A DNA stretch of 64,000 nt from Escherichia coli (GTDB taxonomy: Bacteria > Pseudomonadota > Gammaproteobacteria > Enterobacterales > Enterobacteriaceae). Positions 1 through 10,632 of this stretch are shown one piece after another. The position numbers and the translations under genes are program-made. How positions within the stretch are numbered: the first letter of the stretch is position 1; the number at the start of each line of letters is the position of its first letter. The notes under the pieces are model-generated. The model saw only the letters and a list, made by a program, of their open reading frames with translations, made no database searches and was not told the origin of the DNA. The DNA is taken from assembly GCF_050320075.1 (NCBI RefSeq), contig NZ_CP190018.1. The stretch is one strand, 5' to 3'.

Positions 1-1
1 C

Positions 2-388
2 AAATATTACTGCGATCGCGCAATGGCTAAAAAGTTTGTGCTGAACTTCAGGCCCGGCTATGCCGCCAATATCAACGATTACCTCCCGGAAAAACTGTCG
101 ACACGTCTGGCTGAGGAGTCTGTTTCCCTGTGGCTGTCTACCTGTATTGCCGGTGTGGTGAAGCCTTATGCCAACGGTGCTCACGCATGGGAAATGAGCG
201 TTGTCAGAGTGCGTCGAAGCTGGTGGAAAAAACATCGGGATGAGTTTTCTTTACTGGAAGGGGATGCGTTCAGGCAGTGGTGCATTGAACAGCGGCAAGA
301 GCCGGAGATGGCAAACGTGATTTTAGTCACCGATGACGAAAGTTGCGGGTATTCGGCTATGGAAGGATTGACTGGCAAGGTTGGTTGA
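2..388 (+). CDS. cas3: Cas3 C-terminal region (partial, 5' end outside window)
   Basis: Open frame runs from position 2 with no upstream stop and ends at TGA 386-388, directly upstream of cse1; position matches cas3 in type I-E operons. No motif-level confirmation possible on this fragment. Confidence 0.55.
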   Translation, partial: KYYCDRAMAKKFVLNFRPGYAANINDYLPEKLSTRLAEESVSLWLSTCIAGVVKPYANGAHAWEMSVVRVRRSWWKKHRDEFSLLEGDAFRQWCIEQRQEPEMANVILVTDDESCGYSAMEGLTGKVG

Positions 389-485
389 GATGCCTGCGAC
401 AGGGCTCTCTGAATAGTTGATACACCGAAAAGGATGGAATGATGGACAACCGACCAGGGATGGTCTTTTTTACGAGAGGATGCGT

Positions 486-2048
486 ATGAACTCGTTTTCA
501 CTTCTGACAACCCCGTGGTTGCCCGTTCGTTATAAAGACGGAACGACAGGCAAACTGGCGCCAGTCGATCTGGCGGATGAAAATGTTGTCGATATCGCTG
601 CGCCGCGGGCAGATCTCCAGGGGGCGGCATGGCAGTTTTTGCTGGGACTATTACAAACCAGCTTCGCGCCAAAAGATCAACGTCGTTGGGATGATATCTG
701 GGAAGACGGACTGGAAGCTGAAAAGCTACGGGAAGCATTGCTGTCATTAGACCATGCTTTCCAGTTCGGGCCAGATTCACCTTCATTTATGCAGGATTTT
801 GAGGCGCTCACGGGAGATAAAGTTCCGGTCGCTTCGCTACTGCCTGAGATTCCCGGCGTTCAAACAACAAAGTTTAATAAAGACCACTTTATCAAGCGTG
901 GTGTAACGGAACACCTGTGCCCACAGTGTTCTGCACTAGCCTTGTTCTCTCTACAGTTAAATGCGCCGTCAGGTGGCAAAGGCTATCGCACCGGCTTACG
1001 CGGCGGTGGGCCGATGACCACGCTGATTGAATTACAGGAATATCAGGGCAATCAACAAACTCCCTTGTGGCGCAAACTATGGCTCAACGTGATGCCGCAG
1101 GATGAAGCCGACTTACCGCTACCCAAAAAATTTGACGATCTGATTTTCCCCTGGCTAGGCCCGACGCGTACCAGCGAACTGGCCGGTGCGGTGGTAACCC
1201 ATGATCAGGTCAATAAACTCCAGGCGTACTGGGGAATGCCGCGGCGTATACGTATTGATTTTAATACCACGACAGTCGGCAACTGCGATATTTGCGACGA
1301 GCAGAACGACGCGCTCCTGAGCCTGATGACGACCAAAAATTATGGTGCCAATTATGCCATGTGGCAGCATCCCTTAACGCCTTACCGTGTACCACTTAAA
1401 GAGGGGGGCGAGTTTTACTCCGTTAAACCACAACCGGGCGGTTTAATCTGGCGCGACTGGTTAGGCCTTATCGAAACGGGTAAATCAGAAAACAATACGG
1501 AACTTCCCGCGCTGGTGGTGAAACTCTTTAATGCCAGCAGTCTGAAACAGGCAAAAGTGGGCCTATGGGGATTTGGTTATGATTTTGACAACATGAAAGC
1601 GCGCTGTTGGTACGAACACCATTTCCCGCTACTGCTCAATAAAAAAGAAGGCCAGATACCGAAGCTGCGGCTGGCTGCGCAAACGGCTTCACGGATTCTG
1701 AGTCTGTTACGGAGTGCATTGAAAGAAGCATGGTTCTCCGATCCAAAAGGTGCAAGGGGTGATTTCAGTTTTGTGGATATCGACTTCTGGAACAAAACTC
1801 AGCATCGCTTCCTGAGGTTAGTGCGCCAAATTGAAGAAGGTCAGGATGCGGATGAATTACTCGGCAAATGGCAAAAGGAAATTTGGTTATTCGCGCGTCA
1901 GGATTTTGACGAGCGTGTATTCACTAATCCTTATGAGCCCGTTGATTTGAAACGCGTCATGACCGCGCGCAAGAAATATTTTACAACATCGGCGGAGAAG
2001 CAAAGTGCTAAAGCCGCCAGGGAGAAAAAGCAGGAGGCTGCTGAATGA
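486..2048 (+). CDS. cse1: Cse1/CasA, Cascade large subunit (type I-E)
   Basis: 520 aa from ATG 486, preceded by GAGAGGA RBS. N-terminus MNSFSLLTTPWLPVRY and GYRTGLRGGGPMTT segment resemble Cse1; first gene of the Cascade operon. ORF-track start at 417 is judged an upstream extension. Confidence 0.85.
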   Translation: MNSFSLLTTPWLPVRYKDGTTGKLAPVDLADENVVDIAAPRADLQGAAWQFLLGLLQTSFAPKDQRRWDDIWEDGLEAEKLREALLSLDHAFQFGPDSPSFMQDFEALTGDKVPVASLLPEIPGVQTTKFNKDHFIKRGVTEHLCPQCSALALFSLQLNAPSGGKGYRTGLRGGGPMTTLIELQEYQGNQQTPLWRKLWLNVMPQDEADLPLPKKFDDLIFPWLGPTRTSELAGAVVTHDQVNKLQAYWGMPRRIRIDFNTTTVGNCDICDEQNDALLSLMTTKNYGANYAMWQHPLTPYRVPLKEGGEFYSVKPQPGGLIWRDWLGLIETGKSENNTELPALVVKLFNASSLKQAKVGLWGFGYDFDNMKARCWYEHHFPLLLNKKEGQIPKLRLAAQTASRILSLLRSALKEAWFSDPKGARGDFSFVDIDFWNKTQHRFLRLVRQIEEGQDADELLGKWQKEIWLFARQDFDERVFTNPYEPVDLKRVMTARKKYFTTSAEKQSAKAAREKKQEAAE

Positions 2049-2581
2049 GTATTGTAAAAGAGGAGCACAAAGCCACGCTGCGTAAATGGCACGAAGAGTT
2101 GCAGGAAAAACGCGGCAATCGTGCCAGTCTGCGGCGTAGCACAACGGTTAATGATGTTTGTCTGTCAGAAGGGTTTCGTTCTCTGCTGATGCAGACCCAC
2201 ACTTTGTGGAAAATTGAAGCACAAGAGTGGCGTTTTACCGCACTGGCGCTGGTCGCCGCAGTTAGCGCCAATGTTAAAGCTATTGATGAACGGCAGCCTT
2301 TTGCCGCGCAGCTGGCGGCGGTAATGTCGGAGGGGCGTTTTACTCGCCTGTCGGCAGTAAAAACGCCTGATGATTTACTGCGTCAGTTACGTCGCGCGGT
2401 CAAATTATTAAATGGTTCCGTCAATCTTATCTCTTTGGCAGAAGATATTTTCCGCTGGTGCCAGGAGAGCGACGACCTGCTCAATCATCACCGCCGCCAG
2501 CAGCGGCCAACAGAATTTATCCGTATCCGCTGGGCGCTGGAATATTACCAGGCTGGCGACGCCGATAACGAACAAAATTAA
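2045..2581 (+). CDS. cse2: Cse2/CasB, Cascade small subunit
   Basis: 178 aa, ATGA overlap with cse1 stop; size and position as expected for cse2. Confidence 0.8.
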   Translation: MSIVKEEHKATLRKWHEELQEKRGNRASLRRSTTVNDVCLSEGFRSLLMQTHTLWKIEAQEWRFTALALVAAVSANVKAIDERQPFAAQLAAVMSEGRFTRLSAVKTPDDLLRQLRRAVKLLNGSVNLISLAEDIFRWCQESDDLLNHHRRQQRPTEFIRIRWALEYYQAGDADNEQN

Positions 2582-2595
2582 TAAAGGACTATCTC

Positions 2596-3651
2596 ATGAC
2601 GACATTTATTCAGCTTCATTTGTTAACCGCTTACCCTGCTGCCAACCTTAACCGTGATGACACCGGTGCGCCAAAAACTGTGGTACTGGGTGGAGCAACG
2701 CGTCTGCGCGTTTCCTCACAAAGTCTGAAACGTGCGTGGCGCACTTCTGCACTTTTTGAACAGGCACTGGCGGGCCATATTGGTATTCGCAGTGGGCGTA
2801 TTGCGCGTGAGGCGGCAACTATCCTGATTGAGAAAGGCATCGAAGAGAAAAAAGCCATCGAATGGGCGGCAAAAATTGCGGATTATCTTGGGAAAGCTAA
2901 AAACGACAAAAAACCAAAAGATCCGCTCACTAACGCCGAAACTGAACAGCTAGTCCATATCAGCCCGGCAGAATTTGACGCCGTAAAAGCGCTGGCCCAT
3001 CAACTGGCCGAAGAAAAGCGCGCGCCAAAAGAGGAAGATCTCGCTTTGTTACGTAAAGATCGCATGGCGGTAGATATCGCTATGTTTGGTCGTATGCTGG
3101 CGAATAAACCCGAATTTAATGTTGAAGCCGCCTGCCAGGTCGCGCATGCATTTGGTGTCAGTGAAACGATTGTCGAAGATGATTTTTTCACCGCCGTTGA
3201 TGATTTGCGCCAGGCTTCTGAAGATGCCGGTGCCGGGCATCTTGGTGAAACCGGATTCGGTTCTGCGCTGTTCTACACCTATATCTGCATCGATAAAGAT
3301 CTGCTGGTCGAAAACCTCGGCGGTGACGAAGCGTTAGCTAATCAGACCTTGCGCGCCTTTACGGAAGCCGCACTTAAAGTCTCCCCAACCGGCAAACAGA
3401 ACAGCTTTGCCAGCCGTGCCTACGCCTCCTGGGCGCTGGCAGAAAAAGGCACTGAACAACCACGCTCTCTGGCGGCGGCTTTCTATGAACCCATTAATGG
3501 CACCCGGCAGTTAGATGTGGCGGTGCAGCGTATTACAACGCTTCGCGAAAATATGAATACGGTCTATGAACAGAAGACCGAATGCGCAAGCTTTGACGTG
3601 ATGAACAAACAGGGAAGCATGAAGGACGTGCTGGACTTTATCTGCGCGTAA
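2596..3651 (+). CDS. cas7: Cas7/CasC, Cascade backbone subunit
   Basis: 351 aa, third Cascade gene, RBS AAGGA upstream. Confidence 0.85.
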   Translation: MTTFIQLHLLTAYPAANLNRDDTGAPKTVVLGGATRLRVSSQSLKRAWRTSALFEQALAGHIGIRSGRIAREAATILIEKGIEEKKAIEWAAKIADYLGKAKNDKKPKDPLTNAETEQLVHISPAEFDAVKALAHQLAEEKRAPKEEDLALLRKDRMAVDIAMFGRMLANKPEFNVEAACQVAHAFGVSETIVEDDFFTAVDDLRQASEDAGAGHLGETGFGSALFYTYICIDKDLLVENLGGDEALANQTLRAFTEAALKVSPTGKQNSFASRAYASWALAEKGTEQPRSLAAAFYEPINGTRQLDVAVQRITTLRENMNTVYEQKTECASFDVMNKQGSMKDVLDFICA

Positions 3652-3661
3652 GGGGCGGCTA

Positions 3662-4408
3662 ATGAGCCAATATTTGATTTTTCAGCTTCATGGGCCAATG
3701 GCATCCTGGGGCGTCGATGCCCCCGGCGAAGTGCGTCATACCCATGAACTGCCTTCGCGCTCAGCATTGCTGGGGCTGCTGGCTGCCGGGGTAGGGATTC
3801 GGCGTGATGATACCGAACGATTAAACGCGTTTAACAGCCACTATTCACTGGTGGTTTGCGCCAGCCGTAACCCGCGCTGGGCACGGGATTATCACACGGT
3901 CCAGATGCCAAAAGAGGTGCGTAAAGCGCGTTATTTCAGCCGTCGCGAAGAGTTGAGCGCCCCTGATCTTCTGAGCGCGATTATCTCCCGGCGCGACTAC
4001 TACACCGATGCCTGGTGGATGGTGGCGGTGGCAACAACCCCCGATGCGCCTTACAGGCTTGAACAGTTGCAGGACGGTTTACGTCATCCGGTTTTTCCGC
4101 TTTATCTGGGGCGAAAAAGTCATCCGCTGGCGTTACCACTTGCGCCGTTACTGCTCGAAGGCAACGCGTCTGATGTCTTACGTAACGCATACCAACAGTA
4201 TCAGGATAGTTTCCGCGAACTGAAAGTCTCACTCCCGAAACTTCAGGATGAATGCTGGTGGGAAGGGGAACACGACGGCCTGGTCGCGAGCAAAATATTA
4301 CGTCGCCGGGATGTTCCTTTAAATCGTCAGCAGTGGCTGTTTGGGGAACGCACCATCAATCAGGGGCCGTGGCTCAGCAAGGAGGAACCATGTACCTCTC
4401 AAGAATAA
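3662..4408 (+). CDS. cas5: Cas5/CasD
   Basis: 248 aa; N-terminus MSQYLIFQLHGPMASWG resembles the CasD N-terminus (MRSYLILRLAGPMQAWG in K-12 as I recall). Confidence 0.85.
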   Translation: MSQYLIFQLHGPMASWGVDAPGEVRHTHELPSRSALLGLLAAGVGIRRDDTERLNAFNSHYSLVVCASRNPRWARDYHTVQMPKEVRKARYFSRREELSAPDLLSAIISRRDYYTDAWWMVAVATTPDAPYRLEQLQDGLRHPVFPLYLGRKSHPLALPLAPLLLEGNASDVLRNAYQQYQDSFRELKVSLPKLQDECWWEGEHDGLVASKILRRRDVPLNRQQWLFGERTINQGPWLSKEEPCTSQE

Positions 4409-5036
4409 CCTTACATACCGGCCAGCTTTCGCCTGCGCAGTTGCTGCATCTGGTGGATCGCGGTGAATATGTAATGCATCAGTGGCTGTGGGATCTTTTT
4501 CCTGGCGGCAAAGAAAGGCAATTTCTTTATCGTCGGGAAGAACTCCAGGGGGCGTTTCGCTTTTTTGTCCTGTCGCAGGAACGCCCGGCGGAAAGTGATA
4601 TTTTCACCATCGAATGCCGACCATTTGCGCCAGAGTTGCGTACCGGACAATCCCTTTGTTTCAACCTGCGGGCGAATCCAACAATTTGTAAAGCGGGCAA
4701 ACGCCACGACTTGCTGATGGAGGCGAAACGGCAGGTGAGGGGGCAGGTGGAAGGAAGTGATGTCTGGTTGCATCAACAACAGGCGGCGCTGGACTGGCTG
4801 GCAGCGCAGGGGGAAAGAAGCGGTTTTACACTACTGGATACCTCGGTCGATGCCTACCGACAACAGCAACTGCGGCGGGAAAACTCCCGGCAACTGATCC
4901 AGTTCAGTAGCGTGGATTATACGGGGATGCTTACGGTCACCGATCCTGGGTTATTTCTGCAACGTCTGAGCCAGGGGTATGGCAAAAGCCGCGCGTTCGG
5001 CTGTGGTCTGATGCTGATCAAACCCGGAGCAGAGGC

Positions 5037-5040
<4 letters not shown>
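4390..5040 (+). CDS. cas6e: Cas6e/CasE, crRNA endoribonuclease
   Basis: 216 aa from ATG 4390 (MYLSRITL..., cf. K-12 CasE MYLSKV...); GGAGGAACC RBS; overlaps cas5 3' end by 19 nt. ORF-track start 4252 rejected as extension. Confidence 0.85.
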
Positions 5041-6250
<1,210 letters not shown>

Positions 6251-6346: not shown

Positions 6347-6985
6347 GTGTTCCCCGCGTCAGCGGGGATAAACCGACAATCAGATCACGATCGATGCCTC
6401 GCGTGAGGTGTTCCCCGCGTCAGCGGGGATAAACCGATTTTCGCAGCGGGTAACCGCGCCCGGCGATCGTGTTCCCCGCGTCAGCGGGGATAAACCGTTT
6501 ATGTGGAGTATCAGTGCCTGGGTGGAAAGGTGTTCCCCGCGTCAGCGGGGATAAACCGTGGGGCTGAGCATGGCTAAACAACCGAGGCGCGTGTTCCCCG
6601 CGTCAGCGGGGATAAACCGGTCAACTGGCACCACAGGATGATGGCGGCGAAGTGTTCCCCGCGCCAGCGGGGATAAACCGCAGGTCGACCGACTGGAGGC
6701 GGAGATTGTCGGGTGTTCCCCGCGCCAGCGGGGATAAACCGTGTTGTTTTTCTGCCGGATTAACGCGGTGCGAGTGTTCCCCGCGCCAGCGGGGATAAAC
6801 CGTTGTCGGGCTTGTTCGGCGCGGGTTGTTAACTGTGTTCCCCGCGCCAGCGGGGATAAACCGCCAGCGAAGGACTTGCTCGTGTGGTTAAAGCCGTGTT
6901 CCCCGCGTCAGCGGGGATAAACCGGACGCACTGGATGCGATGATGGACATCACTTGGAGTTCCCCGCCCCTGCGGTAGAACTCCC
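6347..6985 (+). CRISPR. Type I-E CRISPR array: 10 full 29-bp repeats, 10 spacers of 32 bp, plus a degenerate terminal repeat
   Basis: Repeat GTGTTCCCCGCG(T/C)CAGCGGGGATAAACCG at 6347, 6408, 6469, 6530, 6591, 6652, 6713, 6774, 6835, 6896 (period 61 bp); terminal degenerate repeat GAGTTCCCCGCCCCTGCGGTAGAACTCCC at 6957-6985. Sense strand is + (hairpin then AUAAACCG 5' handle). Confidence 0.97.
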
Positions 6986-7005
6986 AGCTCTCATTTTCAA
7001 ACCCA

Positions 7006-8043
7006 TCAAGACGCCTTCGCCAGCTCTTTCACCAGCGGTAGCATTATCCGTATAACATCACGGCAGCGACGTTCTATTCTTCCAGGAAGCGCCTTATCAA
7101 TATGTTGTTGATTATCAAGCCTGACATCGTGCCAGCTTGTTCCCGCAGGGAAGGCGGCGGTTTTTGCACGTTGCTGATAGCCATCCTTATTCCCAAGATT
7201 CCAGTTAGTTGCCTCCACCGAAAGTACCGCAATACCGGCTTTGTCAAAAACTTCCGCGTCGTTACAGCACCCGGTACCCTTCGGATAATTTTTATTCAAA
7301 CCCGGATTGGTCGTTGCGGCAATTCCATGACTACGCGCAATTGCCAGCGCCCTGTCGCGCGTTAATTTCCTTACTGCTTCAGGGGTTTTTACACCGCTGT
7401 TGAAATACAATTTATCGCCAACAATTAAGTTATCGAGATTAATCACCAGCAGCGTATTTTTCTTTTCGGTGTCACTCATCCGCTTGAGTAAATTCTCAGC
7501 ACCTAATTTCCCTTCCTCTTCACCACTGGTCGCCACAAATCGAATACCATACTCGGTAGGCGTATTTTTCAGGCGTTCTGCCAGTTCCAGCATGACACCT
7601 AAACCTGCGGCGTTATCATCCATTCCTTGTAACGTCAGCCCGCCGAGATTGGCATCGGCGTCAGCATCGCTCAGCGGGGCGTATGTATCCAGATGCGCCA
7701 TAATGATGATCTGCTGCGGCGCTTTGCCTTCATGAGCGGCAATCACCGTACTTCCCGTCACGTTATGCCAGCTCTTGCGATTATCGCGGGCGGTATAAAT
7801 ATACCGACTATTAAATGTCCGAATATCACTGCGATAACCCATTTGCTGAAACTGTTGGCGAATATAATCGGCAGATAACATTTCTGCAGGAGTTCCGGTC
7901 ATGCGTCCCGGAAAGAAAGTAGCAATATGTCGTGCCTGAGTATTAGCAAAATCGCCAGGTTTAGGTGACGAGGCGTGTACGGGGAGAATAAAGCATACGC
8001 CGAGCGCCAGGGCAGCGGTACGGTGGCGCAATGCGGAAAACAT
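7006..8043 (-). CDS. iap: Alkaline phosphatase isozyme conversion aminopeptidase
   Basis: 345 aa with signal peptide; matches E. coli Iap; classic neighbour of the CRISPR-I array. Confidence 0.9.
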   Translation of the reverse strand: MFSALRHRTAALALGVCFILPVHASSPKPGDFANTQARHIATFFPGRMTGTPAEMLSADYIRQQFQQMGYRSDIRTFNSRYIYTARDNRKSWHNVTGSTVIAAHEGKAPQQIIIMAHLDTYAPLSDADADANLGGLTLQGMDDNAAGLGVMLELAERLKNTPTEYGIRFVATSGEEEGKLGAENLLKRMSDTEKKNTLLVINLDNLIVGDKLYFNSGVKTPEAVRKLTRDRALAIARSHGIAATTNPGLNKNYPKGTGCCNDAEVFDKAGIAVLSVEATNWNLGNKDGYQQRAKTAAFPAGTSWHDVRLDNQQHIDKALPGRIERRCRDVIRIMLPLVKELAKAS

Positions 8044-9204: not shown

Positions 9205-10632
9205 ATGAACACCGCACTTGCACAACAAATCGCCAATGAAGGCGGCGTCGAAGCCTGGATGATTGCGCAACAACATAAAAGCCTGCTGCGTTTTCTGACC
9301 TGTGGTAGCGTCGATGACGGCAAAAGTACCCTGATTGGTCGCCTGCTGCACGATACCCGCCAAATCTACGAAGATCAGCTCTCATCGCTGCATAACGACA
9401 GTAAACGTCACGGCACCCAGGGCGAAAAACTGGATCTGGCACTGCTGGTGGACGGCCTGCAAGCTGAGCGCGAACAGGGCATCACCATTGACGTGGCTTA
9501 CCGTTATTTCTCTACCGAGAAGCGTAAATTTATTATCGCCGATACCCCAGGGCACGAGCAGTACACTCGCAATATGGCGACTGGCGCATCGACATGTGAA
9601 CTGGCGATCTTACTGATCGATGCCCGTAAAGGCGTGCTCGATCAAACCCGTCGTCACAGTTTTATCTCCACACTGTTGGGGATCAAACATCTGGTCGTGG
9701 CGATCAACAAAATGGATCTGGTGGGTTACAGTGAAGAGACGTTCACCCGTATTCGCGAAGATTATCTGACGTTTGCCGGGCAGCTGCCGGGTAATCTGGA
9801 TATCCGCTTTGTGCCGCTCTCTGCACTGGAAGGCGACAACGTGGCTTCGCAAAGTGAAAGTATGCCGTGGTACAGCGGTCCGACACTGCTCGAAGTGCTG
9901 GAAACCGTGGAGATCCAGCGAGTGGTGGATGCCCAGCCAATGCGCTTCCCGGTGCAGTACGTTAATCGCCCGAATCTCGATTTTCGTGGCTACGCCGGAA
10001 CGCTGGCATCCGGTCGCGTGGAAGTCGGGCAACGTGTCAAAGTGCTGCCCTCTGGTGTGGAATCAAACGTCGCGCGGATCGTGACTTTTGATGGCGATCG
10101 CGAAGAAGCCTTTGCCGGAGAAGCGATCACCCTGGTGCTGACGGATGAGATCGACATCAGCCGTGGCGATCTGCTGCTGGCGGCAGACGAATCATTACCG
10201 GCTGTGCAGAGCGCGTCGGTGGATGTGGTATGGATGGCGGAACAGCCGCTTTCCCCAGGCCAGCGTTACGACATCAAAATTGCCGGTAAGAAGACGCGTG
10301 CTCGTGTTGATGGCATTCGTTATCAGGTTGATATTAATAACCTTACCCAACGCGAAGTTGAAAACCTGCCGCTGAACGGCATCGGCTTGGTGGATCTCAC
10401 CTTTGACGAGCCACTGGTGTTAGATCGTTATCAGCAAAACCCGGTTACCGGTGGGCTGATTTTTATCGATCGCCTGAGTAATGTGACCGTAGGTGCCGGT
10501 ATGGTGCACGAGCCAGTTAGCCAGGCAACTACTGCGCCATCTGAATTCAGTGCATTCGAACTGGAATTGAATGCACTGGTTCGTCGCCACTTTCCGCACT
10601 GGGGCGCGCGCGATTTGCTGGGGGATAAATAA
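9205..10632 (+). CDS. cysN: Sulfate adenylyltransferase subunit 1 (GTPase)
   Basis: 475 aa, GTP-binding motifs [18 protein letters not shown]. Confidence 0.97.

What the first reader, a model, noticed from the sequence alone, without database searches (positions are those of the whole stretch)
389..485. Very short cas3-cse1 intergenic region
Only 97 bp separate the cas3 stop from the cse1 start. In K-12, as I recall, a several-hundred-bp intergenic region carries the H-NS-silenced, LeuO-activated Pcas promoter and an antisense promoter. The compact spacing here suggests cas3 and Cascade may be co-transcribed or differently regulated.
Basis: inference. Interest (0 to 1): 0.3.

Follow-up and report, generated by a model that had tools for sequence, protein, structure and literature searches.

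The report
Short cas3–cse1 spacer, promoter region deleted
The 97-base gap between cas3 and cse1 is real and is the normal state of the commonest E. coli CRISPR-Cas variant: it is what remains after deletion of a longer spacer that carried a promoter region and a small regulatory mini-CRISPR, so the regulation worked out in strain K-12 probably does not apply here.

Summary
cas3 stops at 386-388 and cse1/casA starts at ATG 486, so the gap is 97 bp, against 414 bp in K-12.

The window is the "E1" variant of the E. coli type I-E locus. This 97-bp form is in about 2,430 of 5,426 complete E. coli genomes. The K-12 form is in about 1,130.

The spacer is not AT-rich (49.5% GC, against 29.5% in K-12). 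It has no sigma-70 consensus hit and no similarity to the K-12 spacer.

Rare E. coli strains (GF43, ECNB21-M121) have 95-97% identical Cas3 and Cse1 but 429-450 bp spacers. Aligned to them, the 97 bp is a deletion scar. Lost are a strong hairpin, an antisense mini-CRISPR of the CreR type, and an AT-rich promoter-like tract. A decayed CreR target remains at 407-429.

The retained 3' 55 nt holds three RGGATG motifs. One sits in the loop of a small hairpin (452-465) and one in the Shine-Dalgarno. This hairpin recurs with covarying stems across Enterobacterales, and in Serratia ATCC 39006 it is a proposed RsmA/CsrA site.

Best reading, by inference only: this is an intercistronic spacer of a cas3-to-cas2 operon driven from the AT-rich tract upstream of cas3, with Csr-type translational control of cse1. 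The finding is modestly interesting and belongs to a known kind.

The parts
1..388 (+). 3' end of cas3 (last 128 codons plus TGA stop at 386-388); the window begins inside the gene
   Evidence: ORF 23..388; RefSeq CDS WP_001551555.1 ends at L001 6388 = window 388
389..485 (+). cas3-cse1 spacer, 97 bp, 49.5% GC; a deletion-scarred derivative of a 429-450 bp spacer
   Evidence: alignment A3 to the long-spacer E. coli alleles L086 and L089
392..405 (+). Weak hairpin GCCTG-CGA-CAGGGC (about -6 kcal/mol). It is the remnant of an 11-bp, -25 kcal/mol hairpin that follows the cas3 stop in the long-spacer alleles
   Evidence: alignment A3
407..429 (+). CTCTGAATAGTTGATACACCGAA: decayed remnant of the CreR target site of the long alleles (GF43: CTCTAAG|AGTTATTGATATACGTAA). 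The PAM AAG has become AAT and 3 nt are deleted. It contains TTGATA (417-422), but no -10 element lies at usable spacing
   Evidence: unique in the window
431..436 (+). AGGATG, the first of three RGGATG (CsrA-type) motifs
   Evidence: the only cluster of 3 or more RGGATG within 55 nt in the 64-kb window, either strand
452..465 (+). Hairpin GACCA-GGGA-TGGTC (-7 kcal/mol) with GGA in the loop (GGGATG at 457-462). It is conserved, with covarying stems, upstream of cse1 in Enterobacterales
   Evidence: counterpart in Serratia ATCC 39006 described in PMC8450108
466..471 (+). T6 run after the hairpin. Together they look like a weak intrinsic terminator, but the T run is not conserved in relatives
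474..482 (+). Shine-Dalgarno GAGAGGA (474-480), overlapped by the third RGGATG motif (477-482), 5 nt before the ATG
486..2048 (+). cse1/casA (cas8e), 520 aa
   Evidence: TIGR02547 E = 1.9e-182; RefSeq casA
2045..6250 (+). Rest of the operon: cse2 2045-2581, cas7 2596-3651, cas5 3662-4408, cas6e 4390-5040, cas1 5037-5960, cas2 5957-6250. The genes overlap or lie 10-14 bp apart
6347..7107 (+). CRISPR array (29-bp repeats GTGTTCCCCGCG[T/C]CAGCGGGGATAAACCG, read in the same direction as the cas genes)

Best explanation
The 97 bp between cas3 and cse1 is an intercistronic spacer inside a single cas3-cse1-cse2-cas7-cas5-cas6e-cas1-cas2 transcription unit, not a promoter region of the K-12 type. It arose by internal deletions from a roughly 430-450 bp spacer. 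That longer spacer survives in a few E. coli strains and, in equivalent form, in other genera and in K-12. Three things were lost. The first is a strong hairpin directly after the cas3 stop. The second is an antisense mini-CRISPR of the CreR type, which guides Cascade to a PAM-flanked site in the spacer and so represses the cse1 promoter. The third is about 200 bp of AT-rich promoter-like DNA. What is kept is the decayed CreR target and the last 55 nt or so, which correspond to the translation-initiation region of cse1. Transcription of cse1 and the downstream genes therefore has to come from upstream. The most likely source is a promoter in the extremely AT-rich tract (14-18% GC) just upstream of cas3, which is the sort of DNA that H-NS silences. 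The retained 3' segment carries three RGGAUG motifs: one upstream, one in the loop of a 5-bp hairpin, and one overlapping the Shine-Dalgarno. The most likely function is post-transcriptional control of Cse1 synthesis by CsrA binding, as proposed for the equivalent hairpin in Serratia ATCC 39006. The hairpin plus U6 may also cause partial termination and so lower Cascade relative to Cas3. Shown here: the coordinates, the composition, the deletion relationship, the absence of a mini-CRISPR, and the conservation and covariation of the hairpin. Inferred: co-transcription, the position of the promoter, H-NS involvement and CsrA binding.
For: The gap and gene starts are confirmed. No sigma-70 consensus hit occurs in window 1-1000 or in cas3. 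GC is 49.5%, against 29.5% for the K-12 spacer. The tract upstream of cas3 is 17-21% GC and is conserved as AT-rich in all Escherichia E1 forms and in the compact relatives. E. coli GF43 and ECNB21-M121 have Cas3 95-97% and Cse1 96-97% identical to this window, but spacers of 429 and 450 bp. Alignment A3 shows the 97 bp as their 5' 29 nt, a mid segment of about 23 nt and the 3' 45 nt or so. The long forms carry an antisense repeat 3-4 mismatches from the CRISPR repeat; none is present in the 97-bp form. Their spacer-like segments match PAM-flanked targets (AAG or ATG) over 15-16 positions, with mismatches only at positions 6, 12 and 18. Spacer and target co-vary between the two strains, and 0 of 500 shuffled spacers reach 12. 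The hairpin is -25 kcal/mol in the long form and about -6 here. The closest non-Escherichia relatives have 10-11 bp gaps, and many distant ones overlap. A GGA-loop hairpin lies 14-21 nt upstream of the cse1 ATG in 17 of 29 loci, against 3.9 expected. On the anchored alignment, 80% of cells pair against 57% in shuffles, and 15 cells show double-sided changes against 5.3, both 0 of 500. The three RGGATG motifs form a unique cluster in 64 kb. From the literature: in Serratia ATCC 39006 the major I-E promoter is upstream of cas3, RsmA co-purifies I-E cas mRNA, and a motif lies in a hairpin loop 5' of cas8e next to a GGA in the RBS (PMC8450108). CreR represses PcasA in a Salmonella I-E system (bioRxiv 10.1101/2023.03.10.532045). 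Replacing cas3 in S. Enteritidis raises cse1 20-fold and the other cas genes 8-9-fold (PMC7168661).
Against: No transcript or 5'-end data exist for an E1-type E. coli, so co-transcription is not demonstrated. A weak or non-consensus promoter inside the cas3 3' end or the spacer cannot be excluded by consensus scans. The hairpin plus T6 was flagged as terminator-like and could block read-through. CsrA binding has not been tested in E. coli, and in Serratia the cas8e site is a motif prediction under co-immunoprecipitation peaks. The hairpins in the covariation set were located with a hairpin finder, which favours pairing, and the loci are phylogenetically related. The direction of change (deletion rather than insertion) rests on scars and outgroups, not on a dated phylogeny. 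In O157:H7 strain 4276, cas3 and its upstream tract are deleted while cse1 and the 97 bp are intact. That fits either decay or a cas3-independent source of transcription.
Confidence: 0.55

Rival explanations
1. The spacer, or the last part of cas3, contains its own compact promoter for cse1-cas2, so Cascade is still a separate transcription unit as in K-12, only packed into less DNA.
For: TTGATA at 417-422 is a 5/6 match to the -35 hexamer. Internal promoters within coding sequence are common and consensus scans miss many. In O157:H7 strain 4276 the cse1 operon is kept intact although cas3 and its upstream tract are deleted.
Against: No -10-like hexamer lies 16-18 nt after TTGATA. There are no hits at 9/12 or better in window 1-1000 or anywhere in cas3. 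The spacer is not AT-rich. TTGATA belongs to the decayed CreR target rather than to a recognisable promoter. The AT-rich tract present in the long alleles, which includes their only + strand consensus hit, is deleted here.
Confidence: 0.2
2. The hairpin at 452-465 with its T6 run is an efficient intrinsic terminator for cas3. With the promoter deleted, the Cascade and adaptation genes of this variant are then essentially untranscribed (a silent locus).
For: The terminator scan flags it. It is placed where a cas3 terminator would be expected.
Against: The stem has only 5 bp and folds at -7 kcal/mol, and 14 of 200 shuffles fold as well. Two such sites are found in the first kb, against 1.2 expected. 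The hairpin is conserved in relatives that lack a T run (GF43 CTTATTTG, Klebsiella CATCAG, Pectobacterium GTACAC), so selection acts on the hairpin and its GGA loop, not on termination. It lies downstream of the promoter-like tract in the long alleles, where a strong terminator would also kill cse1 expression. The seven downstream cas genes are annotated intact in all but one of the E1 strains inspected (the GF43 cas7e carries an internal stop), and the spacer-cse1 junction is conserved in about 2,400 genomes.
Confidence: 0.1
3. The gap is an annotation artefact: cse1 really starts at the in-frame TTG at 417, leaving only 28 bp.
For: The mechanical ORF list starts the frame at TTG 417.
Against: The TIGR02547 match begins at residue 28 of that ORF. 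Eighteen homologues down to 45% identity share the N-terminus that starts at ATG 486. A good Shine-Dalgarno precedes 486 and none precedes 417. Relatives with 10-11 bp gaps start at the equivalent ATG. E. albertii has an 8-bp indel in 417-485, which would shift the frame.
Confidence: 0.02

Closest known systems
cas3-cas8e junction of the type I-E operon of Serratia sp. ATCC 39006 (Prodigiosinella confusarubida), Campa et al. 2021, PMC8450108
   Same: Short same-strand gap (66 bp in L016, against 97 bp here). A small hairpin with GGA in its loop lies 20-21 nt before the cas8e/cse1 ATG. A second GGA sits in the ribosome-binding site.
   Different: Cse1 is only 47% identical, the stem sequence differs (CCTC/GAGG against GACCA/TGGTC), and the loop has 6 nt rather than 4. 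In Serratia the promoter upstream of cas3 and the RsmA association were measured. Here nothing has been measured.
E. coli K-12 cas3-casA intergenic region with Pcas and anti-Pcas (Pul et al. 2010; Westra et al. 2010, cited in PMC3497052 and PMC7712790)
   Same: Same position in a syntenic locus (cysH ... cas3 - spacer - casA ... cas2 - CRISPR - iap - cysD). GGA motifs precede the casA start in both.
   Different: K-12 has 414 bp at 29.5% GC against 97 bp at 49.5% GC. The two spacers show no sequence similarity, and the flanking proteins are only 22-29% identical. K-12 keeps an antisense repeat-like element with a perfect ATAAACCG handle, and the window has none.
CreR (Cas-regulating RNA) mini-CRISPR upstream of casA in Salmonella enterica type I-E (Liu et al., bioRxiv 10.1101/2023.03.10.532045; also 10.1101/2024.10.29.618823)
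   Same: The long-spacer E. coli alleles (GF43, M121) and other genera carry the same kind of element between cas3 and cse1: two degenerate repeats around a spacer-like segment that partly matches a PAM-flanked site upstream of cse1.
   Different: The window itself has lost the mini-CRISPR and keeps only a decayed target. It cannot autoregulate in this way unless a guide is encoded elsewhere, and none was found in the 64 kb.
Contiguous cas operon of Salmonella 'cas-STM' type and of Citrobacter, Klebsiella grimontii and Phytobacter
   Same: These are the closest non-Escherichia relatives (Cse1 72-77% identical). cas3 and cse1 lie on the same strand with no room for a promoter, and an AT-rich tract lies upstream of cas3.
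   Different: Their gap is 10-11 bp, so even the GGA hairpin is gone. Escherichia keeps 89-97 bp.

Membership tests
[quoted passage not shown] 2014, PMC3903273) | Full I-E gene set in the order cas3-cse1-cse2-cas7-cas5-cas6e-cas1-cas2 followed by a CRISPR array, between cysH and iap | tested here: met
   NCBIfam equivalog hits for all seven genes downstream of cas3; RefSeq annotation of an identical strain
[quoted passage not shown] 2014, PMC3903273) | Distinct from the K-12 (E2) genes and linked to a hok/sok module between cysH and cas3 | tested here: met
   Cas3 28.9% and Cse1 21.7% identical to K-12; Hok/Gef gene 195 bp upstream of cas3 in L001
K-12-type Pcas / anti-Pcas intergenic promoter region | Several hundred bp of AT-rich DNA between cas3 and casA | tested here: not met
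   97 bp at 49.5% GC, against 414 bp at 29.5% GC
K-12-type Pcas / anti-Pcas intergenic promoter region | Recognisable sigma-70 promoter elements on both strands | tested here: not met
   0 consensus hits on either strand in window 1-1000. This is a consensus scan only and cannot exclude weak promoters
K-12-type Pcas / anti-Pcas intergenic promoter region | H-NS silencing and LeuO activation | not testable with these tools
   Needs ChIP, footprinting or reporter assays
CreR / CreA regulatory mini-CRISPR | Two repeat-like sequences flanking a spacer-like segment within the cas locus | tested here: not met
   No repeat-like match with up to 11 errors in the spacer plus 60 nt of cas3, on the antisense strand, and none with up to 9 substitutions on either strand. 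Present in GF43, M121, K. spallanzanii, Atlantibacter and K-12
CreR / CreA regulatory mini-CRISPR | PAM-flanked partial target next to the cas promoter | tested here: inconclusive
   Window 407-429 is homologous to the GF43 target, but the PAM is AAT and 3 nt are missing. No cognate guide is in the window
CsrA/RsmA-controlled translation initiation region | GGA in the loop of a short hairpin close to the ribosome-binding site | tested here: met
   GACCA-GGGA-TGGTC at 452-465, 20 nt before the ATG; conserved with covarying stems
CsrA/RsmA-controlled translation initiation region | At least one more GGA site overlapping or adjoining the Shine-Dalgarno | tested here: met
   AGGATG at 477-482 within GAGAGGATG; a further AGGATG at 431-436; 5 GGA in 55 nt, found in 0.05% of windows
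CsrA/RsmA-controlled translation initiation region | Direct CsrA binding and csrA-dependent expression | not testable with these tools
   Only the Serratia homologue has co-immunoprecipitation data (PMC8450108)
Rho-independent (intrinsic) terminator | Stable G+C-rich stem followed by a U run | tested here: inconclusive
   5-bp stem with 3 GC pairs, -7 kcal/mol, followed by T6. The T run is not conserved in relatives

The most novel reading that the evidence does not exclude
In the majority E. coli type I-E variant, deletion of the intergenic promoter and of the CreR autoregulatory mini-CRISPR fused cas3 and the Cascade genes into one operon. Control of Cascade then shifted from transcription (H-NS/LeuO at Pcas and Cascade autorepression) to a CsrA-bound hairpin and Shine-Dalgarno switch in the 97-bp spacer. 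If so, the K-12 regulatory paradigm would not describe most natural E. coli. Immunity in those strains would follow the Csr (carbon and growth state) system, and they would be blind to the CreR mechanism that senses crRNA load and anti-CRISPRs.
Probability: 0.25. Interest if true: 0.55.

Novelty: new member of a known kind. Interest (0 to 1): 0.35.

Why it matters
Almost everything known about regulation of E. coli CRISPR-Cas comes from K-12: H-NS silencing, LeuO, and more recently LrhA acting at Pcas. K-12's 414-bp spacer is found in about a fifth of complete genomes. About 45% carry the 97-bp form described here, which lacks that promoter region and also lacks the CreR mini-CRISPR still present in rare sister alleles. 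If Cascade in these strains is made only by read-through from cas3 and is tuned by CsrA, three things follow. Predictions about when natural E. coli (including many pathogens) express immunity need revising. Attempts to awaken or repurpose their endogenous system should target the region upstream of cas3 and the Csr system, not a Pcas equivalent. The natural series of alleles (429-450, 176, 151, 97, 89 and 11 bp) is also a ready-made set for testing what each module contributes.

Tried and rejected
(1) S. Typhi transcription maps as a proxy. Rejected because Typhi belongs to the 'cas-STY' arrangement, with cas3 on the opposite strand and a 357-nt gap (PMC7712790). The primary paper (PMC3133143) is not held.

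(2) Literature on transcription of E1-type E. coli. Searches and readings 30, 59 and 60 found descriptions of the two variants but no promoter or transcript data. One search failed on syntax.

(3) Rfam scan of 1-1200: only a chance snoRNA hit at E = 0.74.

(4) Promoter consensus scans of the window, cas3 and the long alleles. Hits were at or below the shuffle expectation, so they are not decisive either way.

(5) A second copy of the mid segment, as a possible guide elsewhere in the window: none with up to 3 mismatches.

(6) Whole-spacer RNA fold: no better than shuffles (z = -0.28), so only the local hairpin is meaningful.

(7) MAFFT alignment of the hairpin-to-ATG segments (A4) put the 3' stems out of register. 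It was replaced by 18-mers anchored on the invariant GGA (A5).

(8) The 201-aa antisense ORF at 181-786 has no Pfam hit and is not annotated, so I treat it as spurious.

(9) cse1 start at TTG 417: rejected (see rival explanations).

(10) The idea that the 97 bp keeps a degenerate repeat: only the flanks (GGGCT ... ACACC) are shared, and no repeat hairpin or handle remains.

Full report
WHAT IS THERE

The window starts inside cas3. That frame ends with TGA at 386-388. The next gene begins at ATG 486, five bases after a GAGAGGA Shine-Dalgarno. It matches the Cse1/CasA equivalog TIGR02547 at E = 1.9e-182, with model position 1 at codon 498. It is followed by cse2, cas7, cas5, cas6e, cas1 and cas2, then a CRISPR array, iap and cysDNC.

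A RefSeq strain identical over the first 2.1 kb (CFSAN061763, locus L001 = window + 6000) is annotated with the same cas3 stop and casA start.

The in-frame TTG at 417 is not the start. Eighteen homologues down to 45% identity share the N-terminus that begins at 486. E. albertii also has an 8-bp indel between 417 and 486.

The K-12 cas3-casA gap is 414 bp at 29.5% GC.

HOW COMMON IT IS, AND WHETHER IT IS UNUSUAL

The window is an E. coli chromosome carrying the 'E1' variant of the I-E genes. A Hok/Gef gene lies between cysH and cas3. Cas3 is 29% and Cse1 22% identical to K-12. Almendros et al. described this variant (PMC3903273).

| Spacer form | Complete E. coli genomes (of 5,426) |
|---|---|
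| 97 bp (this window) | 2,439 |
| K-12 form, 414 bp | 1,134 |

I fetched loci encoding relatives of this Cse1 from 80 species and measured the cas3-cse1 distance.

| Group | Gap |
|---|---|
| E. coli | 97 bp |
| E. albertii and an Escherichia sp. | 89 bp |
| Citrobacter youngae and C. sedlakii, Phytobacter, Klebsiella grimontii, Salmonella diarizonae | 10-11 bp |
| A S. enterica locus fetched separately | 11 bp |
| Many distant systems | overlap by 4 or 14 bases |
| Others | 150 bp to over 1 kb |
| Several loci | cas3 on the opposite strand |

So 97 bp is short only by the K-12 standard.

WHAT THE 97 BP IS

It is not AT-rich (49.5% GC). It has no sigma-70 consensus match on either strand and no Rfam match. 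As a whole it folds no better than shuffled sequence.

The informative comparison came from rare E. coli strains. GF43 (L086) and ECNB21-M121 (L089) have Cas3 95-97% and Cse1 96-97% identical to the window. Their spacers are 429 and 450 bp. Only 3 and about 7 complete genomes carry these forms.

Aligned to them (A3), the 97 bp consists of three retained pieces:
- The first 29 nt.
- A mid segment of about 23 nt (window 407-429).
- The last 45 nt or so, which are nearly identical.

Three things are missing:
- Most of an 11-bp hairpin that follows the cas3 stop. It folds at -25 kcal/mol in GF43 and is reduced to about -6 here.
- An antisense-oriented mini-CRISPR.
- About 200 bp of AT-rich DNA containing the only + strand promoter-like hit.

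The mini-CRISPR has one repeat 3-4 mismatches from the locus's own CRISPR repeat, a spacer-like segment of 26-32 nt, and a second, more degenerate repeat that keeps a 5'-handle-like end.

Its spacer-like segment matches a site further down the same spacer that is flanked by AAG (GF43) or ATG (M121). The match covers 15-16 positions, with mismatches only at positions 6, 12 and 18, the positions that I-E Cascade does not pair. Spacer and target differ between the two strains in a coordinated way, and none of 500 shuffled spacers reached 12.

This is the anatomy of CreR, the Cas-regulating RNA shown to make Cascade repress PcasA in a Salmonella I-E system (bioRxiv 10.1101/2023.03.10.532045; 10.1101/2024.10.29.618823).

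Comparable elements with PAM-flanked targets are present in K. spallanzanii and Atlantibacter. An antisense repeat-like sequence occurs in 17 of the 21 loci I screened whose gap is 387 bp or more. Among the 12 with a gap of 176 bp or less it occurs in only one, L024, as a 9-mismatch match.

Window 407-429 (CTCTGAATAGTTGATACACCGAA) is the decayed target (GF43: CTCTAAG|AGTTATTGATATACGTAA). The window has no repeat-like sequence there and no second copy of the segment.

The scars, together with the presence of the long form in several genera, indicate that the 97-bp form is the derived, deleted state. That is an inference, not a dated phylogeny.

THE RETAINED 3' PART

Positions 431-485 hold five GGA triplets. 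Only 0.05% of 55-nt windows in the 64 kb have that many. They also hold three RGGATG motifs, at 431, 457 and 477, which is the only such cluster in the window on either strand.

The middle motif is the loop of the hairpin GACCA-GGGA-TGGTC (452-465, -7 kcal/mol). The last overlaps the Shine-Dalgarno.

A hairpin with GGA in its loop lies 14-21 nt before the cse1 ATG in 17 of 29 loci with a spacer of at least 60 bp, against 3.9 expected from dinucleotide shuffles. The stems differ: GACCA/TGGTC, GCGCCA/TGGCGC, GCCGCA/TGCGGC, CCTC/GAGG and ACCCC/GGGGT.

On 11 sequences anchored on the invariant GGA (A5):
- 80% of cells pair, against 57% in shuffles.
- 15 cells show double-sided changes, against 5.3.
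- The covariation score is 0.59, against 0.16. All three comparisons are 0 of 500.
- Slid controls pair at 23-53%.

Two caveats apply. I located the hairpins with a hairpin finder, and the loci are related.

One of these loci is Prodigiosinella confusarubida, which is Serratia sp. ATCC 39006 (L016, gap 66 bp). For that strain, Campa et al. report the following (PMC8450108):
- The major I-E promoter is upstream of cas3.
- RsmA co-purifies I-E cas mRNA.
- An RsmA motif lies 5' of cas8e in the loop of a predicted hairpin, next to a GGA in the RBS.

The T6 after the E. coli hairpin makes it look like a weak terminator. But the T run is absent in GF43, Klebsiella and Pectobacterium while the hairpin persists. 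Termination is therefore unlikely to be the conserved function.

HOW IT MOST LIKELY WORKS

Shown:
- The promoter-like, CreR-bearing part of the spacer is absent.
- The spacer is not H-NS-type DNA.
- A conserved GGA hairpin and Shine-Dalgarno unit remains.

Inferred:
- cse1 to cas2 are transcribed together with cas3, from a promoter in the tract just upstream of cas3. That tract is 17-21% GC over about 150 bp and is AT-rich in all Escherichia E1 forms and in the compact relatives.
- Cse1 synthesis is modulated by CsrA at the hairpin and Shine-Dalgarno, possibly with some attenuation at the hairpin-U6.

Indirect support for the operon comes from Salmonella with the contiguous arrangement. Authors treat cas3 as part of the cas operon (bioRxiv 10.64898/2026.02.26.708173). 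Replacing cas3 in S. Enteritidis raised cse1 20-fold and the other cas genes 8-9-fold (PMC7168661).

The S. Typhi maps do not apply, because Typhi has a divergent cas3 and a 357-nt gap (PMC7712790; PMC8039139).

RIVALS

| Rival | Case against | Probability |
|---|---|---|
| A compact promoter in the spacer or in late cas3 | Cannot be excluded by consensus scans, but no promoter elements are found and the region is not AT-rich | about 0.2 |
| An efficient terminator that leaves Cascade silent | The stem is weak, the T run is not conserved, and the same hairpin sits downstream of the promoter-like tract in the long alleles | about 0.1 |
| A mis-called cse1 start | See 'What is there' | about 0.02 |

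COMPARISON WITH WHAT IS KNOWN, AND NOVELTY

The E1 variant, compact I-E operons, CreR and the Serratia RsmA hairpin are all published. I did not find the following in the literature I could search:
- That the majority E. coli spacer is a deletion derivative lacking both the intergenic promoter region and CreR.
- That sister alleles with intact CreR and co-varying targets exist in E. coli.
- That the GGA hairpin is conserved across Enterobacterales.

This is a new member of a known kind, of moderate interest. It mainly warns that K-12 regulation should not be transferred to most E. coli. No experiment on an E1 strain supports any mechanistic step yet.

Noticed in passing
L086 3117-3545 (E. coli GF43) and L089 3216-3665 (E. 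coli ECNB21-M121): These are rare E. coli alleles of the same E1 locus with 429 and 450 bp cas3-casA spacers. Each carries an antisense CreR-like mini-CRISPR whose spacer-like segment matches an AAG- or ATG-flanked site 265 or 293 nt upstream of casA. Mismatches fall only at positions 6, 12 and 18, and guide and target co-vary between the two strains. A conserved 17-18 codon ORF (MSGS.VE...) starts a few bases beyond the matched stretch.
   Followed up: partly
L002 about 9490-9600, minus strand (K-12 cas3 stop and the first 75 nt or so of the cas3-casA spacer): K-12 has an antisense repeat-like element (GCACCTTCCCTACTTAAGTAGGGATAAACCG, with a perfect ATAAACCG handle). It is followed by exactly 32 nt and then a second degenerate repeat that overlaps the cas3 stop. 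An AAG-flanked site in the spacer matches 13 of 15 seed positions. This could be a CreR-like gene, perhaps the product of the antisense promoter reported for this region. I found no statement of this in the papers read.
   Followed up: partly
L084 3397-3650 (E. coli O157:H7 strain 4276): cas3 is deleted except for its last 75 bp, together with hok/sok and the AT-rich tract. cysH is followed after 78 bp by the cas3 remnant, the intact 97-bp spacer and casA. Cascade genes there have no cas3 and no upstream cas3 promoter region.
   Followed up: no
L007 about 2560-2625 and L011 about 3870-3965: A conserved small ORF of about 32 codons lies just upstream of the GGA hairpin in the 500-bp spacers of K. 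spallanzanii and Atlantibacter: MEEKPNRYKRLFCRLMIRLGNKLSVSFQLSVR and MNIITPTYKRFICKLMFRLGSKLLLQFEFSIN. It is truncated in K. indica (L065). It could be a leader peptide or a CreT-like toxin partner of the mini-CRISPR.
   Followed up: no
L003 (JAIJJM010000114.1, labelled MAG Collinsella sp.): A 7-kb contig binned as Collinsella (Actinomycetota) encodes a Cse1 97% identical to the window's and has the same 97-bp spacer with a single base change. It is almost certainly a mis-binned Escherichia contig.
   Followed up: no
L028, L030, L032, L033, L036, L048, L064: In several Enterobacterales I-E loci (Raoultella terrigena, Citrobacter portucalensis, Mixta, Phytobacter massiliensis and others), cas3 lies upstream of cse1 on the opposite strand. 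This is the divergent arrangement also described for Salmonella Typhi.
   Followed up: no
window 6347-6924: The CRISPR array uses two repeat variants in blocks: GCGTCAGC in repeats 1-5 and 10, and GCGCCAGC in repeats 6-9.
   Followed up: no
window 181-786, minus strand: A 201-codon antisense ORF spans the cas3 end, the spacer and the cse1 start. It has no Pfam hit and is not annotated in RefSeq, so it is probably spurious.
   Followed up: yes
L001 3550-3688 (outside the window, just upstream of cas3): About 140 bp at 18% GC lies between the Hok/Gef gene and the cas3 start. This is the only strongly AT-rich DNA near the locus and the likely site of the operon's H-NS-sensitive promoter.
   Followed up: partly
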